The notes beneath the pieces are model-generated. The model saw only the letters and a list, made by a program, of their open reading frames with translations. It searched no databases and had not been told where the DNA came from. A program made the position numbers and the translations under genes. A DNA stretch of 63,389 bases, counting the filler, from Craspedostauros australis (lineage: Eukaryota): assembly GCA_030167865.1 (NCBI GenBank). It is 7 parts of 7 records of this genome, joined end to end, with 100 filler letters (N's around TTAATTAATTAA, not from the genome) between each part and the next. Parts side by side here need not be neighbours in the genome. Positions count along the whole stretch, not along the records: positions 1 to 28,714 come from JALAGF010005897.1; 6 more parts are not named here. One strand, given 5' to 3'. This document shows positions 2,636 through 60,305 of this stretch, piece by piece. Position 1 is the first letter of the stretch. Each line of letters starts with the position of its first letter.

Positions 2636-5600
2636 ATGAACGGCCAAGGCAATCATGGAGAGGCGCAACGCCCTGGCAGCGCCACCCACGAGCAACAACA
2701 GCAACAACAGCAGCACCAGCAACAGCAACAGCAGCACCTGTCCTCGCTCCTGCTGGGAGGATCGGGCAACCCAGCGGCTGCTGCGGCGGCCGGCTTCATG
2801 GGATATCCAGGGGCTGCGGCGCTCTTTGGCGGGGCGGCAGCATCGGCAGGTCGGTTCGGAATGGCGGATGCCAGCCTCGAGGAGCAGCTACTGCAGGTGA
2901 GCAAACAGGCATGAGTTCATATGTCTCTGTGAGGTGGCTGCGAGGCGTCCGTGAGAGCCTACTCATTGTCGACCAAGACTGTGCGATGCGAGGCAAGCCG
3001 ATATAGGTGCTCCATCTCGAACTTGATGCTTCTGCGACATGCTTGAATGCACTTTGACACGAGCGGCGCATCTCACCTTCGGTTTCTCTCACTGCAAATC
3101 TCCATTTTCCCTCATATCCCACCTGCATACGTACACGTACCTACATTGACACACAGCGTGCATCTGCCTTGCGAGCCGAAGCCTTGATGCAGCAACAGCA
3201 GCAACAACAACAACAGCAACAACAGCAGCAACAACAGCAACAACTCAATGCGGCGTTGGCAGCCATCCAACAGCAGCAGCAGCTGTCAAGCCTGGGCCTC
3301 AACCCCAGCCTTGCGGCGCTCATGGACGCCCGAAGCGTGCAGGAGCTTGAGAGAATCGCTGCTCTGCGCGACCTCGGTCTGGCGGGAGGGGCAGCTGCTG
3401 CACAGGCACCAGGACCTTCCTCCGCATCCACAGCTCCCACCCCATCGGCCCCCACCAGCTCGGCGGCAGTCGCTGCTGCGAGCCTGGACCGATTCCAGCA
3501 GCTGGAACTCAGCAGGTTGGAAGAGCTGGAGCGGCGTCGGCAGCAGCTTGCGGCCCTGGCGAGCATCCGTCCTGACGCGCAAGCAAGTGCGCCGGGTGCT
3601 CACAATCCTGCCTTCTCGGCTGCTGCTGCGGCAGCCGCTGTCGCATCGTCCCAGGCAGCCAATCTTGCGGCCGCCGAAAAGCAGCAACAGCAGCAGTTGC
3701 AGCAGCAGTTCCATCAACAACAGCAACGCCAACAACAGCAACAGCAACAGCAGCAACAATCTCAGTTGCAGCAACAACAACAGCAACAGCAAGCTCAGTT
3801 GCAGATGCAGATGCAGATGCAATCCAACAAGGCCGTCAAGAGCGACGCGGCGAGCACAACCAACGCCAGCGTCGGAGGCGCGTCCATCGCAGGGTCTTCT
3901 GCTGCTGGCGGCGGCGCTGCTCGAAGTGGCGACAGTGTTGCAGGAACGGGGAAAGGCAAGACCAAAGACAACTTCCGCCGCAACCCCGGCACTGTCATCG
4001 TACCATGCCGGGCACGAGGCATGCCGATGGATCACAACTTCAAGGTAAGCAAAGGTGACCTGGCGTGCCTACGCCGCAAGCAAAGCACAATACAATACAA
4101 TACGACCAATCGCACTGCTAATGGACAATCCATGTCACTCGCTCACTCATATGCACTCACACAACATCCAACTTCATGCCACTCTGTCTTCGAACATTGC
4201 AATGTCGCTTCGCATGCTCTGTGTGCAATGTAACGCGTGCAATCACTGTTGCGCCGTTCCTCCTTCGATTGATTGACTGATTGATCGACTGACCGACCGA
4301 TAGACTGCGTACTTCGTCATCTCTGAAGATGTGAAGCACGGCGATGATCTCGTCTGCTCCTACTTCTCGTGTCACAACGGCGGGGTCAAGTTCCGGTAAG
4401 CAAACCAACGTGTTGTGTGGGCCACCGCATGACACATATTACACATTTTGCACAATCTGCATTGTCGTACCTTTTCCACGTCCTGTGCATTGTCATGTGG
4501 GGCGGCGAATAGCACACGGCGATTCCACTCGTATGACGCTGACTTTGACTGGATATCGACATGAATACCTACAATCATGCCCTGCCTCTTCCATTACCTC
4601 ACACGCTGGTCCCATCTTGCATTGCACTCTCTCGCGTTGCGTTGCGTTGTATTGCATCATTGATGCCAAACAACTTCTCACACCCTCCCTATCTATTCGC
4701 AACCGTCCATTCGGTTTCTCATCACAGCTACTGTGCCCACTGCATGGCCCCAGTCGCCAAGCGCAATTTCTGCCGTCGTCACGACCACGGCCTGGCCAAC
4801 ACGAAGGACAAGGATAAGGATAATGCGTCTGTGGTCAAGCAAGAAGAGGAAGAGGAGGCCGAGTCCATGGATGGTAGCACACGTGCCGGAAGCACCAGCA
4901 AAGCACCGAAATCGGTTGCGACTTCAGGGCCAAGCGCAACATCGTCCAAAAGCAGGAAATCCAAATCCGTCGATCCCGACACCTCCGTCGCAACCACCAA
5001 GTCGCAAGGCGCCCGCGGAGGCGAAAAACCCAACGGCAGCACGTCTGGTAGCAAACGCAAGAAGGCAGCATCATCATCTGCCTCGTCTGTGTCGTCAGCC
5101 CCGCCAACGCCTGCTGCTGCTGCTGCCGCTGCCACGAAGCAGGTAGATTCGGATGCACAAGGCCCGGAGGAACCAACAGCCCCCGTCGACATCGAAAGCA
5201 TCGATCCAGAGCGCCGCAACATGTGGAACGCTCTTCTGTTGAAACGCCCACGCTCCAAGGACCCACGTTACATGTCATCGTGGCTCAACGAAGTCGTCGC
5301 GGTCAGCGATTTGGACGCGCCTCTCGAACAGCTCGACAGCAAGGAGGGCGGGACGGTGATCAGCGAATCGTCAAATGAAAAGCTCGACGAAGGCGGCGCC
5401 AATGCAAATGACAAGGCCAAGCCCAAATCGGCGTCGCTGCGTGCCTCCCCCGCCGCATCACCGATGGCGCAGCCACCGCGAACGGCCGCAAATACAGCAG
5501 CATCTACCAAGGCAGTCTCATCGTCTCCGTCTCCGAGTGCCGCATCCCAGCAGCCGAAAAAGAAGCGCAAGGTAGACAGGAAAGCCGCCCAAGATTCGGC

Positions 5601-6015
5601 AAGCGATGGCAAGCTCGGGGGAACAGGTACATCCATGGCCTTCGCCAGCAGCAGCGCCAAGTCCAAGAAAGAGGAAAAGCAGGCAAAGAAGGAAGAAAAG
5701 CAAGCGAAGAAGAAGGAGGACCTGAAGAGAAAAGAAGACGCCAAGAGAAAGGAGGAAGCAAAGAAGAAGGAGGACAAGTCTTCATCGTTGTCGTCTTCCA
5801 GCACCAGCAAGAAGGCCAAGATCGTGAAGGGGACATCATCATCGCCAACACCACCAGCTCCCCCGAAGAAGCAGGCTGCAAAGACATCCAATCGTTACGG
5901 TGGCAGCGATGATGATGACGACGACGATGATGACTATGCCGGAAGCTACGCCGACTGGAAAGATCGCAAGAAGGAAAAGGCGCTGAAGAAGGGAGTCACA
6001 TCGCTCAAGAAGTAG
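2636..6015 (+). CDS. Q-rich protein with uncharacterised Cys/His 'CRARG' domain (putative zinc-binding nuclear regulator), paralog 1; 4 exons
   Basis: Exons 2636-2896, 3157-4044, 4304-4395 and 4728-6015 join in frame across GT..AG introns. They give PCRARGMPMDHNFK|TAYFVISEDVKHGDDLVCSYFSCHNGGVKFR|YCAHCMAPVAKRNFCRRHDH, a polyQ N-terminus, basic NLS-like stretches (PKKKRKV) and a K/E-rich tail. The same domain is present in the neighbouring paralog. Confidence 0.88.
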
Positions 6016-6835
6016 ACTCGTGAGGCACGCGGTTGCTCTACTCTCTGGCCACATGAGCATGGGGGCTCACATGAGACCATGTTGTGTTCGGTGCAAGAGC
6101 TGCGATTCATCGCGAGTGAATGACGACTTCACGCACTCGTTATTAACAGGATGGAGGAAACAATATTAACGCAAGATGATGCAGGTATACTATTCTACAA
6201 TACAACAGTATGTCTTCCTTCAGCATTCCGCACATTCGAAGTGCTCGCGTAGCACGAGTGTGTCGAGTGAAGCAGCACCCGCGCACACTCCACAAGGAGT
6301 GGTGCTGATGACAAATGCGATTGCACTCATAATTCGCTGTTGCACGATGAGAGAGCAATGGCAATGCGATCGCTGTCTGCGATGTTGAAATATCGCAGCG
6401 TTTGGGCAACGTTTGGGGACGCAACAGCGTCGGGTCACGCAGACACTACCAATACAACCTACTCTTCGTACTCGAACTCGCACTCATGAACGTCACGCAG
6501 GCATCGTTCGTTCTCTTTCTCTAGAAAGAGAGAGCACGATCTACTCTCTAGTTGAAAGGAGTCTCCAGTCTACTCGTGACGAACCGCGTTGCACAAAGGC
6601 AATTGAATGGAACAGTGATTCCGTGTCACGTCAAATTGCATGACATCGCATCATCCGGTCTAACCTGCTCGATTGAAGGGACTCTGTGGTGTGCTGCAAT
6701 CGTAGTCGTACTCGTATGGTGCAATATCTACATTGGCATTGGTATGATGCTACATTGACATACCTGCTGAGGTCTTTGCATGTCTAAGCGCTTCCCGTTG
6801 TGTGCTCGGATTGAAATGGATGGCACTGTCTCCAA

Positions 6836-9800
6836 TCAATCTCCATGCACCTTCTTTCGACGCTTCGCATCTCGTTCCCTCACCTCCTTTTCGTCTTCGT
6901 CAGTGGCTGGCGCAGCATGAGCCGCCGCCACATCCATATTAGCATCATCTTCTTCGTTGTCCTCATCGGAATCGTCATCGTCATCGTTGGTATTGACATC
7001 GCTGCCATTGCCCTCCCCATCCTCACTGCCGTCTACACCGGGATCTTCATCATTGGCGCCATCATCATTATCAACTTTATCATCGTGGTCCTTGCCGTCG
7101 CCATCCTCGCCATCGTAGTCTTCGGTGCTGGAGGGTGGATCCGCAACCGTATCGCCCTGCGATTCTGACTTGGCCTCGTTGTTGACCGTTTCGTTCTTGC
7201 GTTCACTCGTGCCGCCTGAATCTTTGCCAAGTTCTTTGGGTTTGCATTGAGAAGGATACTCTCCTCGAGTTGGATCCTGCGTTCCTGATGTCCGTTGATC
7301 TGTAGCCTCTTCCGACTGTCTGTCCGAATCATCGTTGGGGGAACCATCATGCGGAGACGTCGACAGCGAGTCGTTGGAGGTGGATTCTTCGTACCTCGTC
7401 GACGTGCCGCTGTGCGATGAGTAGTTCTGGTCGGGCTCCTTTTGTACGGCGGGTTCGCCGTTTCCGGTTTCGTTGGCATTGGCATTAGCGTTCGAATTTG
7501 CGTTGGCACTGCCGGAGCTGTCAGGGATGGAGAATGGGCCATTGGGCGGGATGACGTTGGCGTCGCTGACGGAGAGCACCTTCATCAACCATGCCGATAC
7601 CTCATCGCCATTGTCCATCGAAGGCCTCTCATCGAGCAGCGTGGCCCATGCCTTTTGTCTTCGGCTTCGAATGGAATCCACAGCATGTTTTCCATCGCTT
7701 GGCGCGCCTGCACCCGCAGTCGTAGCAGAGAGTTGTTGCGGCTGCTTGGCATCGTTCCCATCGTCGCCATCGTCCCCATTGTCCCCATCGCCCACATCTT
7801 TCACATCTTCCACGTCGCCAGCACCGTCGTCGTCGTCATCATCATCATCCTCTTCAGCATGATCGATGCCATCATCTTCGCCCCCGAGCTGTTGACCATT
7901 GCCGCGCTCGCCAACATCATTCCCTTCATCCGTCGGGTGTTGGTTTTGGTGAGCCTTAGTTCTGTTGCCGGTGGGGACGGCATCGGGCAGCTCACCACGA
8001 GGAGGCTGCGCCCATTGGTTGGCGCTGGAAACATGGACACCTTGCTGCTCTTGCATTTGCTGTTGCTGCTGGCGGACAACCGGTCTGCCTTCGTTGGCTT
8101 GTATGGTTGCATCCGTAGAGGAAATGGTCTTGATCGTGTGCGAGCTCGAGGACTTTGCCATGCGACCGTCGTTGTGGTGATCACCTTCGTGGTCGTGGCG
8201 ATTGCGGAAGTTGCGCTTGGCGACGGCGGCCTTGCAGGAGTTGCACCAGCGAAACTTGACGCCGCTGTTGCGGCATGCCGGGTAGTTGCAGACGAGGTGC
8301 TCCCCGTGCTTGATGTCGTGCGGAATGATGAAGTAGGCCGTCTTCAGGAACGAGTTTGATAATGGCGTTGCATCGTATGTACAAGAGCCGCGTTATCATT
8401 GTGCAAGTGAGAAACGAAAGCATGAAGTTCAACGGAGATGGAAAGCTGCATGCATGATGCAAGAAAGGCAGCTAATCAAGAAGAAAGACAGCAGCACCGT
8501 GGCACTCAGCTCCCCGTCGACTAGTTTGAAGGAGACATGGCCGCTCGATGATCATTGATCCTCAGAATGCGCGATAGCACGATACATGTAGCTTGGAGTA
8601 GAGCAGTTGACTGACCTTGAAGTTGTGATCCAACGGCATCCCTCTTGCTCGACACGGGATGAAGTTGTCACTGACAGAAGTGTCGGGCTTGCTGGCCTTG
8701 TCCGCGATGGATGATGATTCGTTTTGAGACATGTCGGGAGGTTGAGGGTTAGATGGCATCTTTTCCATGATGTCCTTCGAAGGTTGGCGGAAGGAAAGAC
8801 CCTGGTGGTGCAGAGCGGTCATCAGCGCCGGTGGTGGGGGATTGCTTGGCCCATCGGGGGATGCCGCTGACTTTGTCTGGGACACGATAGACGGTGGCTG
8901 TGCTGCTGCGGCTGCTGGGGGCATCGCCATGTGCAGTGCCGCTACACCAGTGCCTGGCTTGTTGGAAAGAAGCTGCATTGCCCTCTGAATGTGCGTGCTA
9001 AGTTCTTCATTCTTCGAGGGCGCGGTCCCCAGTCCACCGCTTGCCTGTTGTTGTTGTTGTTGTTGTTGCTGCTGCTGCTGTTGTTGTTGTAGGTTCTGGT
9101 GCTGTGCTATCGGAGGCTGCGATTGCTGTTGCTGTTGCTGGTGTTGTTGTTGCTGTTGTAGGTTCTGGTGCTGTGCTATCGGAGGCTGCGACTGCTGTTG
9201 CTGTGGTTGTGGTTGTGGTTGCGGTGGTTGCTGTGGTTGCGGCTGTTGCGGTGGCATCATCGGTTGCCTCTGGTGCTGTTGGTGTTGCATCTGACCGAGT
9301 ATGGAAAGAATCTGGCCCAGGGCCATCATTGGCTGATTCTGCTGTGGTTGCTGCTGCTGTTGTGGCAGTTGCTGTGGTTGCTGATTGTGTTGTTGGCTTT
9401 CAAACATCATCCTGAGGTTCTGCGGAGCGACCTGAGTCGCAGCAGTCGGTGCGGTTGTCCCAGGTGCGGAAGGCGGTCCTGCTGCAGCCTGAAGGAATTG
9501 ACCCGCTGCATTGTTGGCACCACCGCCTGCAGAAACAGTTCCAGGAGCCGCAGGCTGGCCGGCAAGGAGCTTGGCCATGACCTGATTGCGCAGCGCTGCG
9601 AGGAATGGATTGTTCGCCACGTTGGGCTGGTTCTGACCAAAGGCAAGGCCTGAGAAGTTGGCTTGCTGCAGCTGCTGTCCCTGCACATCGGTGGAAACCG
9701 AGGTGGGTGCAACTGGTGCTCCAGGTCCTGCTCCTGCAGCCTCTCCTGCTGCTGAGGCTGCGGCTTCATTGCTCCCATGATCAGGCCGCTGTCCCTGTCC

Positions 9801-9866
9801 TTGCTGCCCTTGCTGCGAAGAAGGTGGCGCCATCGGCCGGTTGCCCCCCGGCTGATCGAGCGCCAT
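6836..9866 (-). CDS. Q/P-rich protein with uncharacterised Cys/His 'CRARG' domain, paralog 2; 2 exons
   Basis: Exon 9866-8616 (start ATG uncertain, frame open to 9983), intron 8615-8342 (GTCAGT..GAAG), exon 8341-6836. The splice gives PCRARGMPLDHNFK|TAYFIIPHDIKHGEHLVCNYPACRNSGVKFRWCNSCKAAVAKRNFRNRHDH, followed by an acidic C-terminus ending in KRRKK. Confidence 0.87.
9040..9250. repeat. PolyQ tracts with a ~69-bp internal tandem duplication (SQPPIAQHQNLQQQQ twice) inside paralog 2
   Basis: AGGTTCTGGTGCTGTGCTATCGGAGGCTGCGA occurs at 9091 and 9160, flanked by (TTG/CTG)n runs. Confidence 0.85.
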
Positions 9867-17412: not shown

Positions 17413-19863
17413 ATGCTGTGGGCCGATGCCGCGCTGAAGACCGTGGCCTTCGCGGCCTCCATCATAGCCACGTTGCAGGCGTCCTCCCGCGGACTGTACC
17501 TCCTGCAGCATGATGCGATCGGCGTGATGGACGGCCCCTTGATCCAGAACAGATCGACGTCGCTCTTCGAGCTCTCCGAAATGTTCCGTCATGCGGTGTG
17601 GCTTTCCATGACCGATGGCGCAATATATGATGCCAATGTCACCATTCGCGACGCTTCGTCGACCTTCTTGGTGGGTGATGCCGATGAAAAGCAAGCAGGA
17701 GGCAGCAGCGGCAGCAGCAGCAAGAAGGCGACGATCAGAGAGCCCTATTCGTTGTACCCACGGCCTTTCCTCGAAGATCCAGCCGCGTCGTCATCTTCCG
17801 CGACAGGACGCAAGGCCGGAGATAGCGCAACTTCGGCACAGCAGGAAGACACCAGTCCGAACGATTCGGTTGTTCCATTTGATGCCGAGAAGAGCAGTCT
17901 GGACGCATTCCTCGACGCGCAGGTGAATCAGTTTCTGGAGGATGCCGACAGGGACATGGCGGCCGCAGACGAAGGTGGGGATGGGAATGCGGACGATGTC
18001 AAAGGCTCCGCTGATTCCAGCAGTCACGCGGCCAGCAGCGACAGAGGCAACAACCCTGACGGTAGAGGTTGGCGACATTTGGGATCGGCATTCAAGCAGG
18101 CTGCTCAACCGACCTGGGGGGCCACGAGCCATTTCGTGCAGGAATCGCCAAAGGTCGTTTCGTACTGGACGAAATGGGCATGGTACAAGGCCCAAGGCAA
18201 ACGCATGGTGCCCACCAACGCAACAAGCGAAGCGAGTGGTCTTGATCTGGATGGTTCAGGTGAGTAAGAAAGCAGCTGCGCACATGCATGCATACTCATA
18301 CCTGGGTTTGGGCCTGACACATCCACTTGATCTCTGCGTCGCCTCCTGTATCTGCTTCTTCCTCTTCCCTCCTCTGTCTTCCCGCGTCTCACCGCTTGCA
18401 ATGTCAACCCTCCACAACCCCTTTGGCTGACTCATGCAATCACTTATCCGTGCGTCCACTCATCCATGCGTCAATAATGTCACCAATAATGCCGTCAACA
18501 ATGCCGTCAACAATCAATCAATGATCGCGCCACTACGATGATGAACGACGACGACGCCATACTTGTACTTGTACTTGTACTTGTACTCGTACCATGCGAA
18601 ACAGACAGCGACTACAATCTCATGCGCCAAATCCAACTCAGCTTCAATTCCTCAGTCACCAATGAGGACACGACATACACCATATCCGCATACGCACCCA
18701 AGACATTCCAATTCCTGCGCAATCTGTTCGGGATTCGGGACATCGATTACAACTTCTCCATGTCGTCCGATGCATTCGTTTCATTCCAGAGCAATTCCAA
18801 GGGCGCGGCACGAGCTGGCGGCGTTTTCTTCTTCACTCGCGACGGTGCTTACATGATCAAGACAATCAAGAAGGAGGAAGTTGGGGCCTTGCTTCGCATG
18901 CTGCCGAAGTACCGCACGCACATGAAACGATTTGGACGCAGTTCGTTGCTCACGCGATTCTGCGGCATGTACTCCATCCAAATGGACGGCGGCACGCAGC
19001 AAACCATCGTGGTCATGAACTCCGTTTTCCCCGCAGAGGCATCCAAGTTCGTTGCGGAGCGATATGATCTCAAGGGATCGACAGTGGGACGCGAGGTTTC
19101 CGAGGAGGAAAAGCAAAAGAAGGGAAGGAACGCCGTGCTCAAGGATCTCGATCTCGCCAGAGAGGTGAACTTGGTCAAGGCTGTGGGAAGAGGCAGACAC
19201 ACCACGATGCACACACATTCACAACAACCGTCGTATGGCTTCCACATTGGCGCTACGGCCAAGGCGGCGCTGTTGTCGCAGTTGCGACAGGATGTCAAGC
19301 TACTGGTCGACTGCCAGGTCATGGATTACAGCTTGCTCGTCGGCGTGGTGCTCATGGATGAGCACCTGCTGAGATTGGATGCGACGGAGCAACGCGCACT
19401 GGATGTCACCCAGCAGAATCAGGGGGCGCTGGTGCTCGCGGATGCAGCGTCTATTAGCCTGGCGCGTATGCGGGGTAAACGGAAGGTGGATACGGAGCTG
19501 TTCATGGCGCTGGCGACCCCAGTCCGTCTGCTGCTTTCGCCGACGGTCTATTTGTCGCGGAAAATCTGGCAACGGGCCCGGCGCACCGTGTCGTCCATCC
19601 TCACGCTGCCAATGCCATACTACGGCGCCGATCGGTGTGTCGTCGATGGAGGGTCGTTGGCCACCCTGCACGGAACGCGGCGTGGGCAACGCGCGGTGTA
19701 CTTCATGGGACTGATCGACTTCCTGCAGCCGTGGTCGACGAGAAAAGTCTGGGAACGCAAGCTCAAGGGATGGATAGGCCAAGACATCAACGCCGTCAGC
19801 TGTGTGGCGCCGGAGGAGTACGCGGATCGGTTTCTCAGATTTATGGATGAGAACATCAGCTAG
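17413..19863 (+). CDS. PIP5K: Phosphatidylinositol-phosphate kinase (PIP5K family); 2 exons
   Basis: Exons 17413-18259 and 18605-19863 (phase-1 GTGAGT..ACAG). Motifs YAPKTFQFLRNLFGI, FFFTRDGAYMIKTI, RYDLKGS, LKDLD, MDYSLLVG, GLIDFLQ, YADRF. Confidence 0.9.
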
Positions 19864-20380: not shown

Positions 20381-23371
20381 CTATTGGTCCTTCTTGAATT
20401 CGCTCGACGCCAAGTCATTCTCGCTGTGCACGGCTTCGAGCAGCTTGGCCTCGAGCTCCTCGTTGCGTGATTTCTCGATGATCTCCTTCCAGTTCAACTC
20501 GCTGCTGTAGTAGAGATCGCCCATGGCAGGTCCGAGCTTCTTGATGAAGGCACGGATTTCGACTTGCAGCTGACTTCGCATCGCCGGCAACTTCTTCAGC
20601 CGCCGGCGGCTGGATGGGAACAGGCGCATGAGGTACGGTCGCAAATCCTTGAATTCAACGATGCCCGCCTCGCTGACGATGATCCCAACGTACGCAAACA
20701 GCGGCAATGAGAATATGCACAGTGCGATGGTCGGTGCGTCGAAGTCTGTGCCGAAGTACATCAAGAGAAAGTACATGAACCACATGCTCGGGATGGCGAC
20801 CATGCAGAACAGAATCTTCTCCGTCAGCATCACATCGAATGCTCTGATCTTCACCTTGCTCCTTGCCAATGCTCGTTTGCGTCGACGTTCCGCGTACAAG
20901 CCAGCCAGGATGCCGACTGGTAAATTCAAAAAGAGCGTCGGGATGGCCGCCAGCACAAGCAGCACCAGCATATGCACGATTTGATATGGCAGACGGATTT
21001 CGGCGAGCACGGTGTCACCGTCGATGTCCTTTATCTTTGAGTCCTCGCTCAACGTACGGTCCAATCCAGGTACCTGGTAATCACGGATCCCCAGATCGCG
21101 CAGCTCCTTGCGGTATGCGATGATGCGTGTTTGCAAATCCAACCAACTGTCAAATGGCAAAAATATAGGATTGGCAATTGTATTGGCGATCGCATGTGGA
21201 CGAGTGCAATCATGAATTAAGAACGAGAGCGCGAAATGTGAGATATTGACGATCAGATTTCCTCCCCTTCTGCTTTCCTTTTCTCTCTTTCTCTCTCTCA
21301 CTCGTCCTCGGCATGTATCGAACCAACAGCAACAACAGCAACAATAATCAAACAAATGAACAGTGTGCGTCTCAAATTGCAGCCACCACTGTGGAGCACG
21401 ACACATCGATTGCGCGGTTGTAGTTTCAGAGAAGATGATTCGGAAAACGAGAGACAACAACAAGCACTTACGCTTGTGGCGGATCTCCGTTGGTGACAGT
21501 CAGCAATCGCCTGTATCCTTCGGCAAACCGCCGACTGAGGTCTTGCCGTTCCTCAGCGCTGCGTTGCAATCCTCTGCGTTGGTACAGACGTCTGGCCGTG
21601 TGGATCATTTGCAACGTGTCGAAATCGGGTGCTGAAACGATGACGGACTTCATGGAATCCTGGATGCGATCGAGCAAGGTGTTGCAAGTCTCGCGTCGCT
21701 TCATGCCACCGGCCATGTAGTCATCGAGCGTGGTTGGGTCGAGGTAGATGGGGCGTCCGTACTCCACGACCGCGCGTCCGCGCCAACGATGCGCATGGAA
21801 GTAGTTGAGACCGACGGGCACGATGGGGACATTCAGCGCATCGTGTTCCAAAGCCGAATACGCGATCAACGCAACGCCGACCTTCAAGGGCAGGAGGTCG
21901 GTGCGATCGTGGCTTCCGCCTTCGGGGAAGATGCACATGCAACCGCCGCTCGCCATCTTGTCCAGGACCTTTTCGTAGACGACCTTTTGGTCCACGCGTC
22001 TGAGGATGTCGAAGGGAACGGGCGAGTCTTGGGTGGCCTTGAATGCGCCGATTTCGTCTCCCACGATGAGAATGCCCTCGATCTTGACGTTGCTATCGTC
22101 GATGATTTCAATGACTTTGGCAGCGACCGGCGTGCCAGGCGGCCTGATCTTGTCTCCGAGACCAAGCTCCTTGGTGAAGATGGTGCCCTTGCCGCGCACC
22201 GACCAAGTGGAAGGAGACGCCGCCGCTACAGTCGTGTCCTCGCCTGCATTATCGCCGAGTGACATCCCCACGCTTTGGTCGTTGCCGTTGCCTTCTGTGT
22301 TTGTTGTGTTTGTTGCAGTTGTTGTGTTGGGAGCGATATTCTCATGGAATTCCACGAGACCCGTACCCCTCTTGGCAGCATCCTGCGCGCGTTTGACAGG
22401 GACGGCATCCAACGCCCATGCCACGTCACCAACGATGCGGCGATTCCAGCTGGCCTCCGCAATGAGATGGGAGAGCTTGTGCTGGCACGTGCACAAGACC
22501 ATGAGGCCGTCAACGAATTGGTTTGCATGGTTGACGCTGAAGATGATGGGACCGTGCCTGGGGATGTTCTGCAGGCCGATGATTTCCACCTCGCGGAAGA
22601 AGATACTGAGGACCGATTGGAAGAAGGTTTTGACGCAGAAATACATGAGGCTTTTGAATTCGGACAGCCAGATGTAGGATGACATGCAGGCGCAGATGCT
22701 CACGATGTGCCATGGCACGATCCATGGAAAGACATGGATAATGATCTTGACAGGGCTGCCGAATGTAAGTGAAGAGGGGACGAACGCCAGGATCGCAAGA
22801 GCGGCACATTGGGTGAGATGGGATGGCATTGATTGGCATTGAATGGCATGGAATGACATGAGAGATCGTGAAGGGAGCCGGAAGGATGCCGTGAGTATCA
22901 AGATAGATGAAATGAGGTGAGGTGGTGTAGAGTGTGGGCAATGCGGGATGGGAACAACAAATATTTCAAGAGAATACTGTACGCAACGGATGCCCTGCAC
23001 GATACGTATTGATGCATTGACGTATTGACGTATTGATGTATTGACGTATTGATGCAGAGTAACAAGAGCTTGACTCACTTGATGGCGTCCACGGTCAAAA
23101 GCACTGTGACGAGCAAGACGCCCAGCTGCGTCTTGGTGAAGTCAATGTCGGTTTCGGATCTTCCTTCGAGCCTGCGGACGTTGATGAGGCATGAATGTGG
23201 ATGAGATGCAGAGAGAGAGAGGTAGAGACAAGGGAGAAGAAGCGGTCGTGTGAGCGGCTGGTTGATTTGGCATCGCTCGCACAGAGAGAATCGAATGCCT
23301 TCAGCGGTTTGCATTCCACACCGCAGCGTATCCACCATGTGCTTCATTGATGGCTGAATGCCGTACCTCAT
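20381..23371 (-). CDS. GPAT: Glycerol-3-phosphate/dihydroxyacetone-phosphate O-acyltransferase (Sct1/Gpt2-type membrane GPAT); 4 exons
   Basis: Exons 23371-23367, 23171-23079, 22755-21472 and 21146-20381 splice in frame. Acyltransferase motifs NHANQFVD, VPVKRAQD, IFPEGGSHDRTDLLPLKVG and IVPVGLNYF are present, with C-terminal TM helices. Confidence 0.92.
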
Positions 23372-26603: not shown

Positions 26604-27851
26604 TCAACCTTCGCCGACATGCTTCAACGCTTCGCGCTTGCTGAGCGATGCCATGCCATACTTGTGCTCTCGAACAAACTGCTGCACCCAGTGAGGTTCG
26701 AACCTGGCATAATCCCTCAACGCCCACCCCACCGCCTTTTCGATGAAGAAGTCGCGTTCCGGCAACAGCATAATGAGGGTTTCTTCGAACAATGCCAAAT
26801 TCACACGCTTCCCATGCTTCAGATGTGCCAGCAACGACGCCCGTCGCACCCACTTCGAGGAAGGATTGGTGCGCCATTCGATGAGATATGGTTCCACATC
26901 GTCGCGGTGTTCCAAGAGCATCCGCCCCACCAACATTGCGACGGGGTCCAGCGTATCCCACCAATCCGCCGTATGCACCATGTGTGAAACCAACGGCAGC
27001 ATGTCGGGAGTGGCAAAGGTCCGGAACAGCTTGGCTTCGCGGCTGGCGTATCCGGCGATATCCACAGCCGCGTACATCTCTTCTCGTCCGCCGAGCGGGT
27101 TTGTCCACAGTTCGTGCACGATGAATGCGTAGTCCTTCGATGTGGTGATGGGATGCTGAGCCAGCGATCGTTTGAGCATCTCTCTGCGAGGTTGCGACTT
27201 GATACCGTACATTGGATTGGTGGTCTTGAGGTAGCTTTGCATCTTCGCGGCATAGGCATCTTCGCGGTTTGACTCCAGCTGATCACGAAAGTGCCGTAGG
27301 AACGCCAAGGATGACTCAGATGATGAGACAGCCATCGTATGTGTCAGCGCCAGCGGTCGGTCATTGGAAGCTGCTGCGTCGTTGCCGTCGCTATCGCCAT
27401 CGCCGCCGCTCTTCCTTGCCATGGTTGTGATGGTGCTCATCCTTGCGCTTCGACGATGGCACGCAATATTGTTGCCATACGTGCATGAGTGCGAGTACCC
27501 CAAAGAGGACCCCTGTGCGAAGTCAAATTGATCAGCAAGCACCATTGATGATGTCGCTGCGGGCGTGGACTGCAGCGTGGAGACTGACGCGATGCTTCTG
27601 CTGCAGACAGGAGGACAGCTGAAGGCCTCAGGCACGCCGACTGCTGCGGCAACCGGAACTAGCGTTCGAGTCCAAGGAAGAGGAGTGGGCAGGTCTCTGT
27701 TGGTGGTGGTGAAGGCAAACGCAACCAACGTCCGGGAAAACGAGGAAAGCGAGGGTGACGCGCAGTTGATGTGTTGGAATGAAGTTTTGACGCTATGTCG
27801 TCCCCATCGCTTCGCTTGGGCGGTTGCGGAAAGATGGCGCAACCAAATCAT
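26604..27851 (-). CDS. alkD: DNA alkylation repair protein (AlkD-like HEAT-repeat DNA glycosylase) with long N-terminal extension
   Basis: Motifs AAKMQSYLK..MYGIKSQPRR, REEMYAAV, WWDTLD, WVRRASL, FFIEKAVGWALRDY and REALK are typical of AlkD. Intronless. Start codon uncertain (27851 or downstream Mets). Confidence 0.85.
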   Translation of the reverse strand: MIWLRHLSATAQAKRWGRHSVKTSFQHINCASPSLSSFSRTLVAFAFTTTNRDLPTPLPWTRTLVPVAAAVGVPEAFSCPPVCSRSIASVSTLQSTPAATSSMVLADQFDFAQGSSLGYSHSCTYGNNIACHRRSARMSTITTMARKSGGDGDSDGNDAAASNDRPLALTHTMAVSSSESSLAFLRHFRDQLESNREDAYAAKMQSYLKTTNPMYGIKSQPRREMLKRSLAQHPITTSKDYAFIVHELWTNPLGGREEMYAAVDIAGYASREAKLFRTFATPDMLPLVSHMVHTADWWDTLDPVAMLVGRMLLEHRDDVEPYLIEWRTNPSSKWVRRASLLAHLKHGKRVNLALFEETLIMLLPERDFFIEKAVGWALRDYARFEPHWVQQFVREHKYGMASLSKREALKHVGEG

Positions 27852-28512
27852 GAAGGATGTGTCGGAGATGTACTGTCGACGGCTGACCCTTCTTGATCTC
27901 GATAACAATCGTGACGTCTTTGGGATGGATGTTGTACCCGTGTTCTCGATACGGCATTGCAACTTTCGTGAGTTGACGACAGACCGAAGCTCGTCCCTTG
28001 TTGTCGAAGCTTTCTCTCCGCAGCGAGCAGCAACGACTGTCGTGGTGAGACACGCCGAGTGACGGGTTGGGAGTGCTTGTGCTGTTCTGTCCCAAAGAGA
28101 GGCAGTCGTGCTGTCCGCTGCATCCGTCCTCTCGTGTTCGCTCTCTCTTTCTCTCTCTCCCTGTTTGCGTGTGTGTGCGTGAGTATCGCAGGTACCGATA
28201 CTCGCGCGTTCGCGAGGCGTGAACCGTCCACGGCACGATGTTTGTTGGTCGCTGTTGATGTTCGCTACTTGGCTTGGCTCCTGTCCGCGATTGTCTTCTT
28301 GTTCCGTGGAGGTTCCACGCTGGAATCGCGTTCTCATTTCATAACTGGAACACCCAACATTTTGTCCGATTTTCACTTTTCTAGCTCGTGACCTAATTTA
28401 CCGGGACTTAATAAACTGCGTTGAGACAGAAAAGTGAATCGCCTGAAATCCTGAAAATCGTAGATAGGGTTACGCTATTGTTCTTAATTGTCGTTGGTCC
28501 AGGCACGAGAGA

Positions 28513-52461: not shown

Positions 52462-53161
52462 GAATGATGCCACCAGCAAAGTGTTCTCTTCGGTTGGCGG
52501 ATAGAGCAAAGAGACCAAAGATGCATGTCCGTGTGGGACGTGCCACGACAGTTGGATGCTGATGTTGGTGTTGGTGTTGGTGGTGGTATTACCTTTGTTG
52601 ATGTCGCCGTTGAGGTCAACTTGTTCTGTGCAACACGTTCAGCATCTCTTTGTTGTTCACGATTGTGTTGCCGTTTGTTGTGATGGTTGGCAGGCTCGTT
52701 TCTCGTGTCACGTTCCTTCTTCAGACACGATTGACCATTGAAATGTAGTGCCAAATAAATACAATTAGCGTCGGAGAGTTCGGGGTTTGAAATTTGAATT
52801 TGCTTTTTGGGACAAGATCGTTTCAACACATCTCAGACAACGGGAAAACAGACATCATCTCGGTTCTCTCGCACATCCACATCCACATCCACCACCGCCG
52901 TTGCCACCGCTTGACAACAACAAGAACAATGAAAACAACGCCAAGAACAACACGAGCAGCCCTGGGTGGAGCATCACTCTCACCACCTTCGCCGCCGCAT
53001 GCATCCCTCATAATCAACGAAACTGGAGCACGAACCGTACCCACACCCAATCACTTCGCAAGGCTGCATCATCTTTCCGCAACACCAAAACACTCCGGTC
53101 TCCGCCTCTTCTTTGCGCTGACCATCTCTCCGTCACCTTCCACTCTCTGTCAATTGGAACC

Positions 53162-54673
53162 ATGGTCCAACGAATTGCCAAGCGCCCATCCAACTTGGAC
53201 TCCATCTCGGAGACCAAGCAACTCATCACGAACGATGATGCGATCAAGAACGCCATGGCATCAGATGCCGTCTCGAAGATCTCGCCAACAGCGGCCGATA
53301 CCGCAGGCAACGGAGGCTTCATCATCACGCCATCTAGTTCCATATCGAGCCCCAACTCGAGCGACAGTGACGACGACACAGGCAGCCATGATGCAACGGT
53401 GACAAGAGCACGCAGATCACTGTTCGTCCCCGTTCGAAAGGCCGTCGCAAGCTCGGCGAAGGAGGACGAGGCAGCTGCATCCAAGGAAGCCCCGCCAACA
53501 CCAAAGGGAGTCAAGACCAAAGCCCAGACTCCAGGTTCCTCCGTCATCACACCAGACCGCAGAAGAAAGCGCAAGCTGCGGCTCGATTCGGACGACGATG
53601 ATGCCAGCGCAGACGCCATGCGGCCCGCACCCAAGCGCCGTCTGCTGTTCGGACGCATGGTCAAGTCGACCTACTGCCAACCAAATGTCAAGAGCGTCTA
53701 CTCCATCGTCAAGAAGCTGACGGGTGCCATCGGCGGCAACGGATACTCCGGGCCCATCTACGGTGAGCTCACCATGGCATCCATGCAAAAGATGATCGAT
53801 CACATGATGGAGTACGCCGAGCTCGACTCCTCCAGCCGTTTCCTCGACGTCGGCAGCGGCATCGGCAAGCCCAACCTGCACGTCGCGCAGTATCCCGGAG
53901 TCGAATTCAGCTGTGGTGTGGAGCTGGAACATGTGCGCTGGAATTTGGGCATGGTCTGCCTCAAGGCTATCCTGAACCGCGCCATGAATCAGCGTGACGA
54001 GCCGGATTTCGATCGATTGACCGACGAAGAGATCGTCAAGGGCAACACCGCATTCCTGCATCGCAACATCATGGAGGCCAATTCCTTCGATCCCTTCACG
54101 CACGTGTACATGTTCAGCATTGGTAAGTCGACGTGTGCGCAGCTTTTGTGGGTTGATTCGGCGTGTGACCTGCACGTGGCATGGTAATGTCACACTCACC
54201 CACACACCCACTCACTCGACGCATCATCCATAACAACAAAACAAACAACATTGCAAATAGGCTTCCCACCGGACCTATGGGATCACCTTTCGACCATGTG
54301 GAACACGAGCTCCGCCAAGTACCTCATCTGCTACTTGAATCCACGCGATCTCATCGAAACCTACGACTTCGACGTCGAGCTGGTGTCCCGCATGCCAACT
54401 TCCATGCATGGCTCGAAGGAGGGACATCTGGGATACGTCTACAAGCGCGTCCATGCGAGGGAAGCAGGCAACAAATCGCACGGCCATCGACGTGCCAACG
54501 CAAACAGCAACAGTGGCAACCGACGAGTCAAGTGCGACCCCATCTTCCAAGAGGCCTACGACCTGGTCTGCGATGGTTTGGAGCCATTGCACAAGGCGGT
54601 GACACAACAAACCAACTCGACCATGAACTCGGGACGCAGGACTCGTTCGCGCGGGATGAAGCTGACACGATGA
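53162..54673 (+). CDS. DOT1: DOT1-like SAM-dependent (histone H3K79-type) methyltransferase; 2 exons
   Basis: Exons 53162-54122 and 54261-54673 join as MFSIG|FPP. Motifs YGEL, FLDVGSGIGKP, GVELE and THVYMF. Basic N-terminal NLS-like RRRKRK. Confidence 0.8.
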
Positions 54674-55323
54674 ACGTGATTGATCCGGGCGCTCATTTGG
54701 GAGAGGAGAAACGCACCCATTGCAGTGTAGGTGCACGAGCATGTCGCCAGGCCGCGTCGTGTGCCAGTGTTGGACGATGTCGCGATAACAGTGGGTGTGA
54801 CCTGTGAAGGATAGCACGAGTACAGTACCGCAAAGGGAATCATATGTAGATCAGTGCAAGGTACACCATAACACACAAAGCAACACCATAGGCTGCAATA
54901 TGACGACACATGGGACGTAGCAAGCGGCATCGGTCACAATGCGGAGACTGCTAAGCTGCAAACCTAACTTGATTTCTGCTCTCGTAGGTTTGGGCGTAGC
55001 TGTGAAAGTAGTATTATGTGTATTATTTATGCGATTGTGGAGAGGGAGATGAGGTTCCCACACGAAAAGGTGCACCGATTGATATGAGTAGTTGGAGTAA
55101 TTATGTATTTGCCGCAACTCCGTGCCGTTGTTTGACAAGTATGGGAACATTGGAAGATCCATCAACAACAAAACGAAACACGGCAGATGACATCGCTTGG
55201 ATCATCACGTCAACCACACCGACACAAACGAACAGCAACACCACCGTGCACCACTGCCAGCTGCGCCATCGACTGCGAAGCCATCATCAGGTGATAGTTG
55301 CAGTCCTCCGTGAATGGTGGAGA

Positions 55324-56487
55324 ATGCGGACTTTGCGATTCGTGTCACCCATCTGTACTCTGCAACTGACTTCCGATCTGCCTCTATCGCGTGCCTTCGC
55401 TCTGCAATCGACGCAACGGATCTGCTCTCTGGCATCATCTATCCACAAGCGTTCGACGGCCGCCTTTCGCGGTTCCACCGATCCTCAGACCTTCACGGGT
55501 CGTACTTTGAAACCGTCTTCCACAAAGACCGCATTGAGCATGTCTTCCGAAACACCATCAGCGCCGCCGCATAAATTCGTGGACATTGGCGCCAACCTCC
55601 TCGACGAGCGATTCACGGAAGGCAGCTACTTTGGACGCAAGAAGCATGAACCCGACTGGGACGCCGTCATGGAACGTGCGGAATCCGTTGGCGTCTCGCA
55701 CATCATCCTGACGGCCGGCACGCTGCACGAGAGCCGCCGCGCGCTGGACCTCACGCGCGAGCTGCGCGGCAAGTCGATGCAGTTCGGGTGCACCGTGGGC
55801 GTGCATCCAACGCGGTGCCAGCAGGAGTTTGTCGATGCGGACGCCGACGCGGTGCTGTCGCAGCTCGCGGATCTGGTCCGGGACGGCATGGCGGATGGCA
55901 GCGTCGTGGCGTTGGGTGAAATTGGTCTGGATTACGATCGGTTGGAGTTCTGTTCCAAGGAGGTGCAGCAGGCCTACCTCGCGAAGCAGCTCGAGATCTT
56001 TCGGCCGTTCCATCGGCTGCCGCTGTTCTTGCACAACCGCAGCGTGAATCGCGATCTGTTGGACGTGCTCAAGAAGGAAGAGAGCACCACGAAATGGAAG
56101 GGTGTGGTCCATTCCTTCGACGACACGCTGGAATTGGCGCAGGCCTTCATCGAGATGGGATTCTACATCGGCCTCAACGGGTGCTCGTTGAAGACGGAGG
56201 ACAACTTGCAGGTCGTGCGAGAACTGCCGCTGGACAAGATCCTCCTCGAGACGGACTGTCCGTACTGCGAGATCAAGCAGACCCACGCTGGGTTCCATCA
56301 CGTTCAGACCAAGTTCCAGAAGAAGCCTGACAAGAAGTTCGAGCTTGGCAAGATGGTGAAGGGGCGCAACGAGCCATGCCAGATCATTCAGGTGGCGGAA
56401 GTCATCGCTGGCGTGAAGGGCGTGGACGTTGCGGAGGTGGCATCCATCTGTCATCGGAATTCGCTGGCTCTCTACGGCTGGTCATAG
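55324..56487 (+). CDS. tatD: TatD-family deoxyribonuclease (TATDN1-like)
   Basis: Motifs VDIGANL, TVGVHPT, GEIGLDYDRL, PLFLHNR, GVVHSF, LETDCPYC and RNEP. Start at 55324 or 55540. Confidence 0.93.
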   Translation: MRTLRFVSPICTLQLTSDLPLSRAFALQSTQRICSLASSIHKRSTAAFRGSTDPQTFTGRTLKPSSTKTALSMSSETPSAPPHKFVDIGANLLDERFTEGSYFGRKKHEPDWDAVMERAESVGVSHIILTAGTLHESRRALDLTRELRGKSMQFGCTVGVHPTRCQQEFVDADADAVLSQLADLVRDGMADGSVVALGEIGLDYDRLEFCSKEVQQAYLAKQLEIFRPFHRLPLFLHNRSVNRDLLDVLKKEESTTKWKGVVHSFDDTLELAQAFIEMGFYIGLNGCSLKTEDNLQVVRELPLDKILLETDCPYCEIKQTHAGFHHVQTKFQKKPDKKFELGKMVKGRNEPCQIIQVAEVIAGVKGVDVAEVASICHRNSLALYGWS

Positions 56488-58070: not shown

Positions 58071-58902
58071 GCAACAGCAATCTAACAAAAAAAGCTCCTG
58101 AAGAATCTGTGTTGCAACTGCCAATTGTCATGATCGGAGATCGTTCCATGGAAGTGATCGAAAGCACAACCGGCATCCACTACTGAATTCATCGTTGGGG
58201 GCAACACGCATCTCGCACACTCAAATTTGTCACTCTGCCTGAGCAACGTTTGACCGCACAAGAATTTTTTGCGCTCCGCGCACGCGCGCGACACTTGTGA
58301 TGTTGACATCTGTCGAAGGCTGCTTTCGATTCGCATTGTCCACGTCGCGCGCTATGATTGGTAAAAACGAGTCCATCCAGTCAATGATCGTGACATGTTG
58401 GTGATTCCTTGTTCTTCGTCGGAAGTAGGAATTGAGAGTTCTCACAGGACGATTCCGAAATCTGGCGGAGNNNNNNNNNNNNNNNNNNNNNNNNNNNNNN
58501 NNNNNNNNNNNNNNNNNNNNNNNNNNNNNNNNNNNNNNNNNNNNNNNNNNNNNNNNNNNNNNNNNNNNNNNNNNNNNNNNNNNNNNNNNNNNNNNCAATG
58601 GGATTCATTCGAATTGACAACTGTGCAAACCCAAAATCGTTCCAATGACAGGCAACACGGGTCTTCTGCACAACACTTTGTTCACATACATACAACCAAT
58701 TTCTCTGCTCTGCTCTAGTCACTTAGTCTGTCTCTTTCTCTATTACCTGACTTGGCAAGGCTGGAAGAAGCCCTGATCAATAGACAGCTATGGCAACTGC
58801 CTNNNNNNNNNNNNNNNNNNNNNNNNNNNNNNNNNNNNNNNNNNNNTTAATTAATTAANNNNNNNNNNNNNNNNNNNNNNNNNNNNNNNNNNNNNNNNNN
58901 NN

Positions 58903-60205
58903 CCATCTTCAACCCGATGTCTTCCATCAGTTGAGTCAAAAAGCGGATCTCCTTTCCAGCTTCTGACAGTGCGACATACTCGGCCTTGGTCGAGCTCAGT
59001 GTCACGCTGCGTTGCGCCTTCGATCTCCAGATGATAGGCACTCCTCGCAGCAGGACCAGATGTCCTCCAACACTGATGCGGTTGTCCTTGTCTCCAGCGA
59101 ACTCGCTGTCGGTGTACACCACGATCTTCCATGNGTTGTTGTTCAACGGNTTGGNCTCCATCCTCAATCCGTANTCTCTCGTGTCCGANACGAACTTCAT
59201 CACTCTCAGCATCTCCTTGTATGCNGTGGTCGTTGGTCCATCCAACACCTTNGTNAGNTCTCGGACTGCATTCGCGATGTCTGGTCTCGAATGCTTCACC
59301 AGATATAGTAGCATACCCACTCCACTGCGGTATCTGCTGTGTCGATCCTTGTCGACCTTGGGCGCTTCACTGTTCCTCTGAATCCCTTGACCTGGTGTGC
59401 CTGGGGTTCCGTATCGTTGAAGCTTCGTCACGTCGCTCTTGAATGTATCCGTGATGTTCTTGATGNNNNNNNNNNNNNNNNNNNNNNNNNNNNNNNNNNN
59501 NNNNNNNNNNNNNNNNNNNNNNNNNNNNNNNNNNNNNNNNNNNNNGTCTTCGAGTCCATCCTCGATCTTGATTCCGAATCGTTCGCGCTTGATGTCTTGC
59601 ACCAGTCGCTTTAGCTCGAGGGTGCTTCCAATGCACAGGCAATCATCGACGTACGTCCCGATGAGAACGAGGTTCCCTTCCCGATTCCGAATTAGCAGGC
59701 ATGGGTCCACCTTGCTCTGCCGGAAGCCAAGCCTAACCAAGATGTCCACAAGCTTCTTGTTCCACTGCCTTGCGCTCTGAACCAACCCGTAGATGGTCTT
59801 CTTCAGTAGCAGGCATTCGTCCGGTTCATGCTCCATTCCCTTGGGGCATTGCATGTAGATCTCTTCCTCGAGGTCTCCGTGCAGGAAGGCGGTTTCGAAG
59901 TCGATGATGATGCTGTCNNNNTTCAACAACATCTTCATGGTCAGCATCACTCGGTACGTTGCATCGTGGATAACAGGCGCATGATGAGCGGAAAAATCCA
60001 CTCCAGCAATCTGCGAGTATCCACAGGCAACCAACCTGGCGCGAAAGACTCCATTCCTTTTCTCCTTGAAGACCCATTTCGTCTTCACACATCGCCGATC
60101 CCTTGGCATCTTGTTCTTCTGGATCTTCTGCCAGACTCCTCGTCTTGTCATGTCGTAGAACTCCTTATTGATGGCCTCCCGCCATTTCCTCCGCTTCGCT
60201 GGATC
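58903..60205 (-). mobile_element. Ty1/Copia LTR retrotransposon pol fragment (reverse transcriptase + RNase H)
   Basis: Motifs KWVFKEK, RARLVACGYSQ, TAFLHGDLEEEIYM, YGLVQSARQW, YVDD, YTDSEFAGD and SSTKAEY. Fills the whole of contig F and contains ambiguous bases. Confidence 0.95.
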
Positions 60206-60305
60206 NNNNNNNNNNNNNNNNNNNNNNNNNNNNNNNNNNNNNNNNNNNNTTAATTAATTAANNNNNNNNNNNNNNNNNNNNNNNNNNNNNNNNNNNNNNN
60301 NNNNN

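What the first reader, a model, noticed from the sequence alone, without database searches (positions are those of the whole stretch)
2636..9866. Convergent paralog pair carrying an uncharacterised Cys/His 'CRARG' domain hidden by introns
The domain is invisible in the ORF track because introns split it. After splicing, the two tail-to-tail genes share a 65-aa block that is 46/65 identical by manual alignment, with conserved C, H, H, C, C, C-x2-C and H-x-H, while most of the flanking sequence is unalignable. Both genes have an intron at the same position (after DHNFK); only paralog 1 has a further intron inside the domain. PolyQ N-termini, basic NLS-like motifs and the basic AKRNF..RH helix suggest a lineage-specific zinc-binding transcription-regulator family. 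I cannot assign it to a named domain; the function is inference.
Basis: partly seen in the sequence, partly recalled or inferred. Interest (0 to 1): 0.78.

Follow-up and report, generated by a model that had tools for sequence, protein, structure and literature searches.

The report
Unnamed diatom-wide zinc-finger-like protein domain
Two tail-to-tail, intron-split genes encode members of a large diatom-only protein family built around a strictly conserved 65-residue cysteine/histidine domain that matches no named family or solved structure and most likely binds zinc and DNA.

Summary
Gene 1 (+, 2636-6015, 4 exons, 842 aa) and gene 2 (-, 9866-6836, 2 exons, 918 aa) share a 65-66 residue block (46 identical; BLASTP E 3e-34). 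All nine Cys/His are kept, and both genes have a GT..AG intron at the same codon boundary.

The block is a real domain family:
- 629 cluster representatives match at E<=1e-3.
- All 16 named source species are diatoms, from radial centrics to raphid pennates.
- 19 positions are invariant in 31 sequences.
- The intron site recurs in 33-34 of 86 related genomic copies.

The two genes are old family members, not recent duplicates: domains are 70% identical to each other, while gene 1 is 92-94% identical to orthologues elsewhere.

Zinc binding and a transcription-regulator role remain inference. They rest on the ligand pattern, net basic charge, an SV40-type nuclear signal, and Q-rich and acidic tracts. 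Splice junctions are supported by contiguous orthologues, not by RNA reads.

The parts
2636..6015 (+). Gene 1, 842 aa. CDS exons 2636-2896, 3157-4044, 4304-4395, 4728-6015 (stop 6013-6015). Introns 2897-3156, 4045-4303, 4396-4727.
   Evidence: Splice model with GT..AG at all three introns. P0083, a 647-aa relative, runs contiguously over all three junctions.
4003..4044 (+). Gene 1 Cys5His4 domain, first piece (residues 370-383; ligand candidates C371, H380). It ends at the conserved phase-0 intron.
   Evidence: coordinates by arithmetic from the exon model.
4304..4395 (+). Gene 1 domain, middle exon (residues 384-414; H395, C401, C406). It ends in a phase-2 intron inside the Arg414 codon.
   Evidence: tblastn 4304-4396, then a stop if read through.
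4728..4788 (+). Gene 1 domain, last piece (to residue 434; C416, C419, H432, H434), with the predicted basic helix.
   Evidence: helix at model residues 63-69.
5191..5325 (+). Gene 1 second conserved module (residues 569-613), predicted helix-loop-helix.
   Evidence: W12, P20, W31 invariant in 37 sequences; pLDDT 88-96 in relative P0060.
5554..5574 (+). Gene 1 seven-residue basic stretch (residues 690-696) of the classical SV40 large-T nuclear-signal type.
   Evidence: position 690; likeness to the SV40 signal is recalled knowledge.
5935..5994 (+). Gene 1 C-terminal aromatic/basic motif (residues 817-836), shared with orthologue-like proteins.
   Evidence: alignment to P0073; the same motif read in P0022, P0024, P0030, P0047.
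6836..9866 (-). Gene 2, 918 aa. CDS exons 9866-8616 and 8341-6836 (stop 6836-6838). Intron 8342-8615.
   Evidence: GT..AG, frame kept, ORFs.
8616..8657 (-). Gene 2 domain, first piece (residues 404-417; C405, H414). It ends at the same phase-0 intron site as in gene 1.
8189..8341 (-). Gene 2 domain, second piece (residues 418-468; H429, C435, C440, C450, C453, H466, H468).
   Evidence: this piece was the query that found 629 relatives.
7547..7681 (-). Gene 2 second conserved module (residues 638-682), helix-loop-helix.
6851..6865 (-). Gene 2 C-terminal basic cluster (residues 910-914).

Best explanation
Both genes encode members of a diatom-wide family of largely disordered, Q-rich and acidic proteins.

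The family's defining part is a compact, net-basic domain of about 65 residues with five invariant Cys and four invariant His. I infer that:
- the domain holds two zinc ions;
- its core is a zinc-ribbon-like pair of knuckles (C-x4-C and C-x2-C);
- the first Cys and the His residues tie the N-terminal strand and the C-terminal basic helix to that core;
- the domain binds DNA, so the proteins act as lineage-specific transcription regulators.

The Q-rich and acidic tracts would serve as effector regions. The conserved downstream helical hairpin would be a partner-binding module.

Shown here: the family, its conservation, the shared intron, a confident predicted fold and the lack of any named relative.

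Inferred only: zinc, DNA binding, nuclear location and a regulatory role.
For: Family size and range:
- phmmer with the gene 2 exon piece finds 629 representatives at E<=1e-3 and 236 at E<=1e-10.
- All 16 named source species are diatoms.

Conservation:
- 19 columns are invariant in 31 distinct domain sequences, including all nine Cys/His.
- Both window genes keep all nine.

Predicted structure:
- The domain-only AlphaFold model has pLDDT 89.5 and pTM 0.75, with four main strands and a terminal helix at residues 63-69.
- The same domain reaches pLDDT 94-97 inside a 232-aa relative whose remainder is disordered, apart from the hairpin.

Nucleic-acid and nuclear-type features:
- The domain core carries a net charge of +7.3 on average (range +2 to +12, n=31); gene 1 is +4 and gene 2 is +8.
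- Gene 1 has an SV40-type basic heptapeptide.
- Both N-terminal regions are 23% Gln, and both proteins have acidic runs.

Tandem forms: 19 of the 150 listed relatives carry two copies of the domain. Known DNA-binding zinc-domain families also have such forms (recalled).

Age: the intron sits at the same codon boundary in 33 of 86 related copies by script, or 34 by my reading, so the gene family is old and under constraint.
Against: - No experiment or tool result shows zinc, DNA or nuclear location.
- The weak likenesses that do recur point elsewhere. One is to RBR ubiquitin-ligase zinc domains. The other is, by name only, to SET domains.
- Basic charge and Q-rich tracts also occur in RNA-binding and co-regulator proteins.
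- The models are of relatives about 70% identical to the window's domains, not of the window's own proteins.
Confidence: 0.5

Rival explanations
1. The domain is a zinc-stabilised module that binds proteins or chromatin rather than DNA. The proteins would then be co-regulators or scaffolds recruited by other factors.
For: - There is no fold likeness to known DNA-binding domains.
- The proteins are mostly disordered, with short conserved modules, which is typical of scaffolds.
- No other recognisable domain occurs in the 80 relatives scanned.
Against: - The strong net basic charge of the domain fits nucleic-acid contact better.
- So do the invariant Arg/Lys positions in the terminal helix.
- Nothing tested here tells the two readings apart.
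Confidence: 0.22
2. The domain binds RNA, and the proteins act after transcription.
For: - The domain is net basic.
- Its closest structural hit is a zinc ribbon, a fold found in many RNA-binding proteins (recalled).
Against: - No RNA-binding family matches.
- The SV40-type nuclear signal, Q-rich tracts and acidic tracts are commoner in transcription regulators (general knowledge).
Confidence: 0.1
3. The domain is a diverged IBR/RING2-type zinc domain of RBR ubiquitin ligases and acts in ubiquitin transfer.
For: Three weak signals fall on the same stretch of about 21 residues (C39-C57 in model numbering):
- Pfam IBR_2 at E 1.2e-4 and 4.3e-4 in 2 relatives, both under the cut-off.
- The domain profile against PDB gives parkin RING2 at E 0.53.
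Against: - Every score is below significance.
- No RING1 or any other RBR part is found in the 80 relatives or in the window genes.
- The ligand pattern differs from the IBR pattern (recalled).
Confidence: 0.05
4. The domain derives from, or is related to, the C-terminal part of SET methyltransferase domains.
For: - UniRef names three two-domain relatives (P0178, P0197, P0204) 'SET domain-containing protein'.
- The protein-atlas feature search puts short SET-named clusters first, at scores 0.85-0.86 with SET on 38-49% of members. It had given 0.83 with SET on 16% for the exon piece.
Against: - Pfam's SET model matches none of the relatives, including those three, at E<=1 or E<=10, and none of 80 at E<=1e-3.
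- Atlas scores under 0.9 count only as leads by the tool's own figures.
- The domain is far shorter than a SET domain (recalled).
Confidence: 0.05
5. The shared block is chance similarity, or an artefact of a wrong splice model.
For: No RNA read was seen across any junction.
Against: - BLASTP gives E 3e-34.
- There are 629 relatives.
- Orthologue sequences run contiguously across all junctions.
- The same intron site occurs in 33-34 of 86 related copies.
Confidence: 0.01

Closest known systems
RBR ubiquitin-ligase IBR / RING2 (Rcat) zinc domains, such as parkin RING2 and RNF216
   Same: - Both are small domains with two zinc-binding knuckles.
   Different: - All scores are below significance.
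- There is no RING1 and no other RBR part.
- The domain has His-rich outer ligands, an N-terminal strand carrying the first Cys, and a basic C-terminal helix.
Zinc ribbons, such as the carrier protein LysW
   Different: - LysW has one zinc site and an unrelated role.
Plant SBP-box DNA-binding domain
   Same: It is a functional analogue in kind (recalled): a lineage-restricted domain of about 70-80 residues with eight Cys/His ligands for two zinc ions and a basic end. Three SBP entries appear in the Foldseek list.
   Different: - Those hits have E about 7 and probability 0.04-0.12.
- Pfam's SBP model does not match.
- The ligand order and spacing differ.
WRKY-GCM1 and classical C2H2 zinc fingers
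   Same: - The spacings C-x4-C-x25-H-x-H and C-x2-C-x12-H resemble the WRKY and C2H2 patterns (recalled).
- Tandem two-domain forms exist, as in some WRKY proteins (recalled).
   Different: - No Pfam match and no listed fold match.
- The last two His are one residue apart, not three to five.
- The end of the domain is helical in the model.

Membership tests
Any Pfam-A family | Match to a curated family model above its cut-off | tested here: not met
   - 0 families for the 4 window exon products at E<=1.
- Among relatives, 0 matches above cut-off in 10, 7 and 4.
- In the 80 members of A1, only one sub-threshold IBR_2 hit.
IBR / RING2 of RBR ligases | Pfam IBR-type model above cut-off | tested here: not met
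   IBR_2 scores 22.6 and 20.8 bits against a cut-off of 27, in P0017 and P0208 only.
IBR / RING2 of RBR ligases | RING1-IBR-RING2 architecture | tested here: not met
   No RING or second IBR in the 80 relatives or in the window genes.
IBR / RING2 of RBR ligases | Fold likeness | tested here: inconclusive
   [not shown]
SET domain | Match to Pfam PF00856 | tested here: not met
   No SET hit in P0178, P0197, P0204 at E<=1, in P0237, P0163, P0168, P0169 at E<=10, or in 80 relatives at E<=1e-3.
SET domain | Fold likeness to solved SET domains | tested here: inconclusive
   [not shown]
SET domain | PROSITE SET profile or profile-profile match | not testable with these tools
   No PROSITE or HH-suite library is on hand. 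An attempt to fetch SET sequences for hhalign failed.
SBP-box | Pfam SBP model, and fold likeness to SBP structures | tested here: not met
   - No Pfam hit.
- Foldseek E 6.8-7.6 for 8j4b_B, 8pfc_H and 1ul5.
WRKY-GCM1 zinc finger | C-x4-5-C-x22-23-H-x-H spacing (recalled) and the beta-sheet fold | tested here: inconclusive
   - The observed spacing is C-x4-C-x25-H-x-H, which is near but not equal.
- There is no Pfam WRKY hit.
- No WRKY or GCM chain is listed by VIA or Foldseek.
Classical C2H2 zinc finger | C-x2-4-C-x12-H-x3-5-H (recalled) | tested here: not met
   C-x2-C-x12-H is present, but the last two His are separated by a single residue. There is no zf-C2H2 Pfam hit at E<=10 on the domain piece P0169.

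The most novel reading that the evidence does not exclude
The domain is a DNA-binding zinc module with a fold unlike any solved structure. It would define a major transcription-factor family invented in the diatom lineage, comparable in standing to SBP or WRKY in plants, and absent from every current census of diatom regulators.
Probability: 0.4. Interest if true: 0.75.

Novelty: new variant of a known kind. Interest (0 to 1): 0.6.

Why it matters
Diatoms carry out a large share of marine primary production, yet their catalogues of regulators rest on domain families defined in animals, plants and fungi.

A strictly conserved, diatom-wide Cys/His domain with hundreds of members and no name would be missed by all such catalogues. 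If it binds DNA, it adds a whole family of candidate regulators. Members exist in model species: Phaeodactylum tricornutum B7FY69 is one. Knock-out, localisation and DAP-seq would therefore be directly feasible.

If the predicted fold is right, it may also be a new zinc-binding architecture.

Tried and rejected
- **RNA support for the junctions.** No RNA holder was listed. The one run offered (X1, kind only guessed as RNA, kept as contigs) gave exact contigs at 5392-6285 and 6793-7174. No contig lay on or across any of the four introns. The junctions are therefore neither confirmed nor denied by reads.\n- **Self-association of the helical hairpin.** Two copies of window:5191-5340 were sent. 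The result was no verdict (score 0.02, mark 0.32), which is no evidence either way.\n- **Word-index protein searches.** The exon piece shared too few words. The 'longer' setting searched only proteins of 1790-5000 aa and found nothing.\n- **Whole-genome tools.** No genome is held for this window. SET sequences for a profile-profile test could not be fetched.\n- **WRKY idea.** It was raised from the C-x4-C ... H-x-H spacing. No WRKY, GCM, SBP or SET chain was listed by VIA, and Foldseek listed no WRKY, GCM or SET chain and SBP only at E about 7.\n- **Protein atlas.** Only sub-0.9 leads came back.\n- **Earlier findings of this scan.** Nothing was shown.\n- **Conserved tail-to-tail pairing.** None of the 114 tblastn rows over 80 related loci lay on the opposite strand. 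Most of those loci are short, so this is weak.\n- **Literature.** Seven searches returned no paper on this domain: motif strings, the accessions of the Phaeodactylum member and descriptive terms. I saw search listings only and read no paper. I worked the coordinates out by hand from earlier outputs instead.
Full report
**1. What is in the sequence**

The stretch is eukaryotic and holds two convergent genes whose stop codons lie 820 bases apart.

| | Gene 1 | Gene 2 |
|---|---|---|
| Strand | + | - |
| Start codon | 2636 | 9866 |
| Exons | 2636-2896, 3157-4044, 4304-4395, 4728-6015 | 9866-8616, 8341-6836 |
| Product | 842 aa | 918 aa |

All four introns begin with GT and end with AG, and they keep the frame. 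Reading through the two introns inside gene 1's domain runs into stops.

BLASTP of the two spliced products gives one strong block: 49/77 identities with an 8-residue gap, E 3e-34. It also gives a second, weaker block of 15/40, E 2e-5.

Without gaps, 46 of 66 positions are identical, or 46 of 65 counted from the proline before the first Cys.

The shared Cys/His pattern is C-x8-H-x14-H-x5-C-x4-C-x9-C-x2-C-x12-H-x-H:
- Gene 1: C371, H380, H395, C401, C406, C416, C419, H432, H434.
- Gene 2: C405, H414, H429, C435, C440, C450, C453, H466, H468.

Both genes have a phase-0 intron after the same Lys codon. Only gene 1 has a further phase-2 intron, inside the Arg414 codon. tblastn finds no third copy in the 63-kb window.

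**2. It is a real and large family**

phmmer with the 59-residue exon-2 piece of gene 2 was run against 1.84 billion cluster representatives. It found 629 proteins at E<=1e-3, 236 at E<=1e-10 and 14 at E<=1e-30. Of the 150 listed, 19 carry the domain twice.

Every relative that carries a species name is a diatom:
- Raphid pennates: Phaeodactylum tricornutum (B7FY69 / XP_002179884.1, 'predicted protein'), Pseudo-nitzschia multiseries and P. pungens.
- Araphid pennate: Grammatophora oceanica.
- Polar centrics: two Skeletonema species, four Thalassiosira species or strains, Cyclotella cryptica, Cyclostephanos tholiformis, Stephanodiscus triporus and Conticribra weissflogii.
- Radial centrics: Proboscia inermis and P. 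alata.

That is 16 named species, spanning radial centrics, polar centrics and pennates. Most hits are unnamed, so members outside diatoms are not excluded. From this I infer that the window comes from a diatom.

**3. Conservation**

In 31 distinct domain sequences taken from metagenome loci, 19 columns are invariant. In the numbering of the modelled piece they are C9, R12, H18, H33, G34, C39, S40, C44, G48, F51, C54, C57, P60, V61, A62, F66, R69, H70 and H72.

Both window genes keep all nine Cys/His. They depart at a few other conserved positions (read):
- Gene 2 has Asn for S40 and Ala for P60.
- Gene 1 has His407 where more than 90% of relatives have Arg.

**4. Splice junctions**

No RNA read supports them directly. 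The support is comparative.

P0083, a 647-aa relative, aligns to gene 1 contiguously across all three junctions. Gene-1-like metagenome or metatranscriptome pieces (L017, L023, L029) run uninterrupted through both in-domain junctions.

In 80 related loci a script found 86 domain starts:
- 50 run on without a break.
- 33 have a GT..AG intron of 67-223 bases at exactly the same codon boundary.
- 3 were left unresolved. By my reading, two of these (L001, L003) are uninterrupted and one (L074) is split.

The shared intron is therefore an old family trait. Gene 1's second intron is not seen in gene-1-like genomic pieces (L079, L080). One relative (L039) has an intron at a different place in the domain.

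**5. The pair is not a recent duplication**

The two domains are 70% identical. Gene 1's domain is 92-94% identical to those of P0079, P0076 and P0111. Gene 2's nearest relative reaches 77%.

Gene 1 also shares an N-terminal motif, the hairpin module and a C-terminal motif with orthologue-like proteins such as P0073 and P0083. No opposite-strand second copy was seen in the 80 related loci, though most are short.

**6. A second module**

The second module lies 134 (gene 1) and 169 (gene 2) residues after the domain, at 5191-5325 and 7681-7547. The same block follows the domain in 35 further distinct related loci sequences aligned with the two window copies. W12, P20 and W31 are invariant and two Leu are nearly so.

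In the model of relative P0060 it forms a helix-loop-helix with pLDDT 88-96.

**7. Comparison with known families**

Pfam:
- No family for the window's four exon products.
- No match above cut-off in the relatives scanned.
- The only repeated weak hit is IBR_2, at 22.6 and 20.8 bits against a cut-off of 27, in two proteins.

PDB by sequence:
- The single piece finds nothing.
- The full-length profile finds only low-complexity matches.
- The domain profile's best hit is parkin RING2 at E 0.53, over 21 residues.

AlphaFold models of relatives:

| Model | Input | Result |
|---|---|---|
| | 232-aa P0060 with an 80-sequence alignment | Domain pLDDT 94-97; rest disordered except the hairpin |
| | 79-residue domain piece L016:1784-2020 with 31 sequences | pLDDT 89.5, pTM 0.75; strands 4-8, 24-28, 51-54, 59-62; helices 42-46 and 63-69 |

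The window's own spliced products could not be handed to the fold tool. The modelled pieces are about 70% identical to them.

Fold searches:
- Foldseek against PDB: no hit at E<=1e-3.

The domain therefore has no significant relative by sequence or predicted fold. The only recurring faint likeness is to zinc-ribbon / RBR-type zinc knuckles.

A separate lead points to SET domains. UniRef names three relatives 'SET domain-containing protein', and the protein atlas places short SET-named clusters nearest (scores 0.83-0.86). Pfam's SET model does not back this up. I could not run a PROSITE or profile-profile test.

**8. How it most likely works**

Shown here:
- A compact, strictly conserved Cys5His4 module.
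- Its net basic charge: mean +7.3, range +2 to +12 in 31 sequences; +4 in gene 1 and +8 in gene 2.
- A predicted terminal helix rich in invariant Arg and Lys.
- N-terminal regions with 23% Gln and runs of up to 18 Gln.
- Acidic runs, and in gene 1 a seven-residue basic stretch of the SV40 nuclear-signal type.
- Tandem two-domain forms in relatives.

Inferred:
- The nine ligand candidates hold two zinc ions. Either the four central Cys form one ribbon-type site and C9, H18, H33 and a terminal His form the other, or the C-x2-C pairs with the terminal His residues. I could not read model coordinates to decide.
- The basic face and helix contact DNA.
- The proteins are nuclear regulators whose low-complexity tracts act as effector regions.
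- The hairpin is a partner-binding module.

I put this reading at about 0.5. The rivals are a protein- or chromatin-binding zinc module (0.22), RNA binding (0.10), an RBR-like ubiquitin module (0.05) and a SET-related module (0.05).

**9. Novelty**

Members sit in public databases as hypothetical or predicted proteins, so the sequences are not new. I found no family name, no structure and no paper for the domain. That rests on eight literature searches seen as listings only, which do not cover subscription journals or supplements.

Lineage-restricted Cys/His zinc domains in regulators are a known kind of thing. This one appears to be a new family, possibly with a new fold. I score interest at 0.6.

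Noticed in passing
window 9054-9222 (-, inside gene 2): A 69-base unit repeated 2.4 times (88% matches, score 254) duplicates a 23-residue Q-rich segment of gene 2. Many shorter CAG/CAA-type arrays lie in both genes.
   Followed up: partly
window 4373-4375 (gene 1 residue 407); gene 2 residues 436 and 456: The window's genes depart from otherwise conserved non-ligand positions. Gene 1 has His for a >90% conserved Arg; gene 2 has Asn for the invariant Ser and Ala for the invariant Pro. All nine Cys/His are kept.
   Followed up: partly
relatives P0001-P0018, P0044; loci L001-L009: A subfamily carries two copies of the domain in tandem, separated by an acidic linker. Named members are Thalassiosirales. 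UniRef calls three of them 'SET domain-containing protein', although Pfam's SET model does not match.
   Followed up: partly
L039:1735-2079: One relative has an intron at a different place inside the domain, between the C-x2-C knuckle and the terminal helix.
   Followed up: no
window 5392-6285 and 6793-7174: Contigs of the one public run offered (kind only guessed as RNA) match the 3' parts of both genes and the sequence just past their stop codons without a difference.
   Followed up: partly
window 58847-60253 (-): An ORF has a copia-type reverse transcriptase domain (RVT_2, E 6e-38). It lies in a lower-GC part of the window.
   Followed up: no
window 18490-19863 (+), 21468-23141 (-), 26604-28397 (-), 52769-54187 (+), 55012-56487 (+), 62061-63035 (-): Neighbouring ORFs match PIP5K, an acyltransferase, a DNA alkylation repair protein, DOT1 (weak, 35 bits), a TatD DNase and ankyrin repeats. 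None shows an evident link to the two genes.
   Followed up: no
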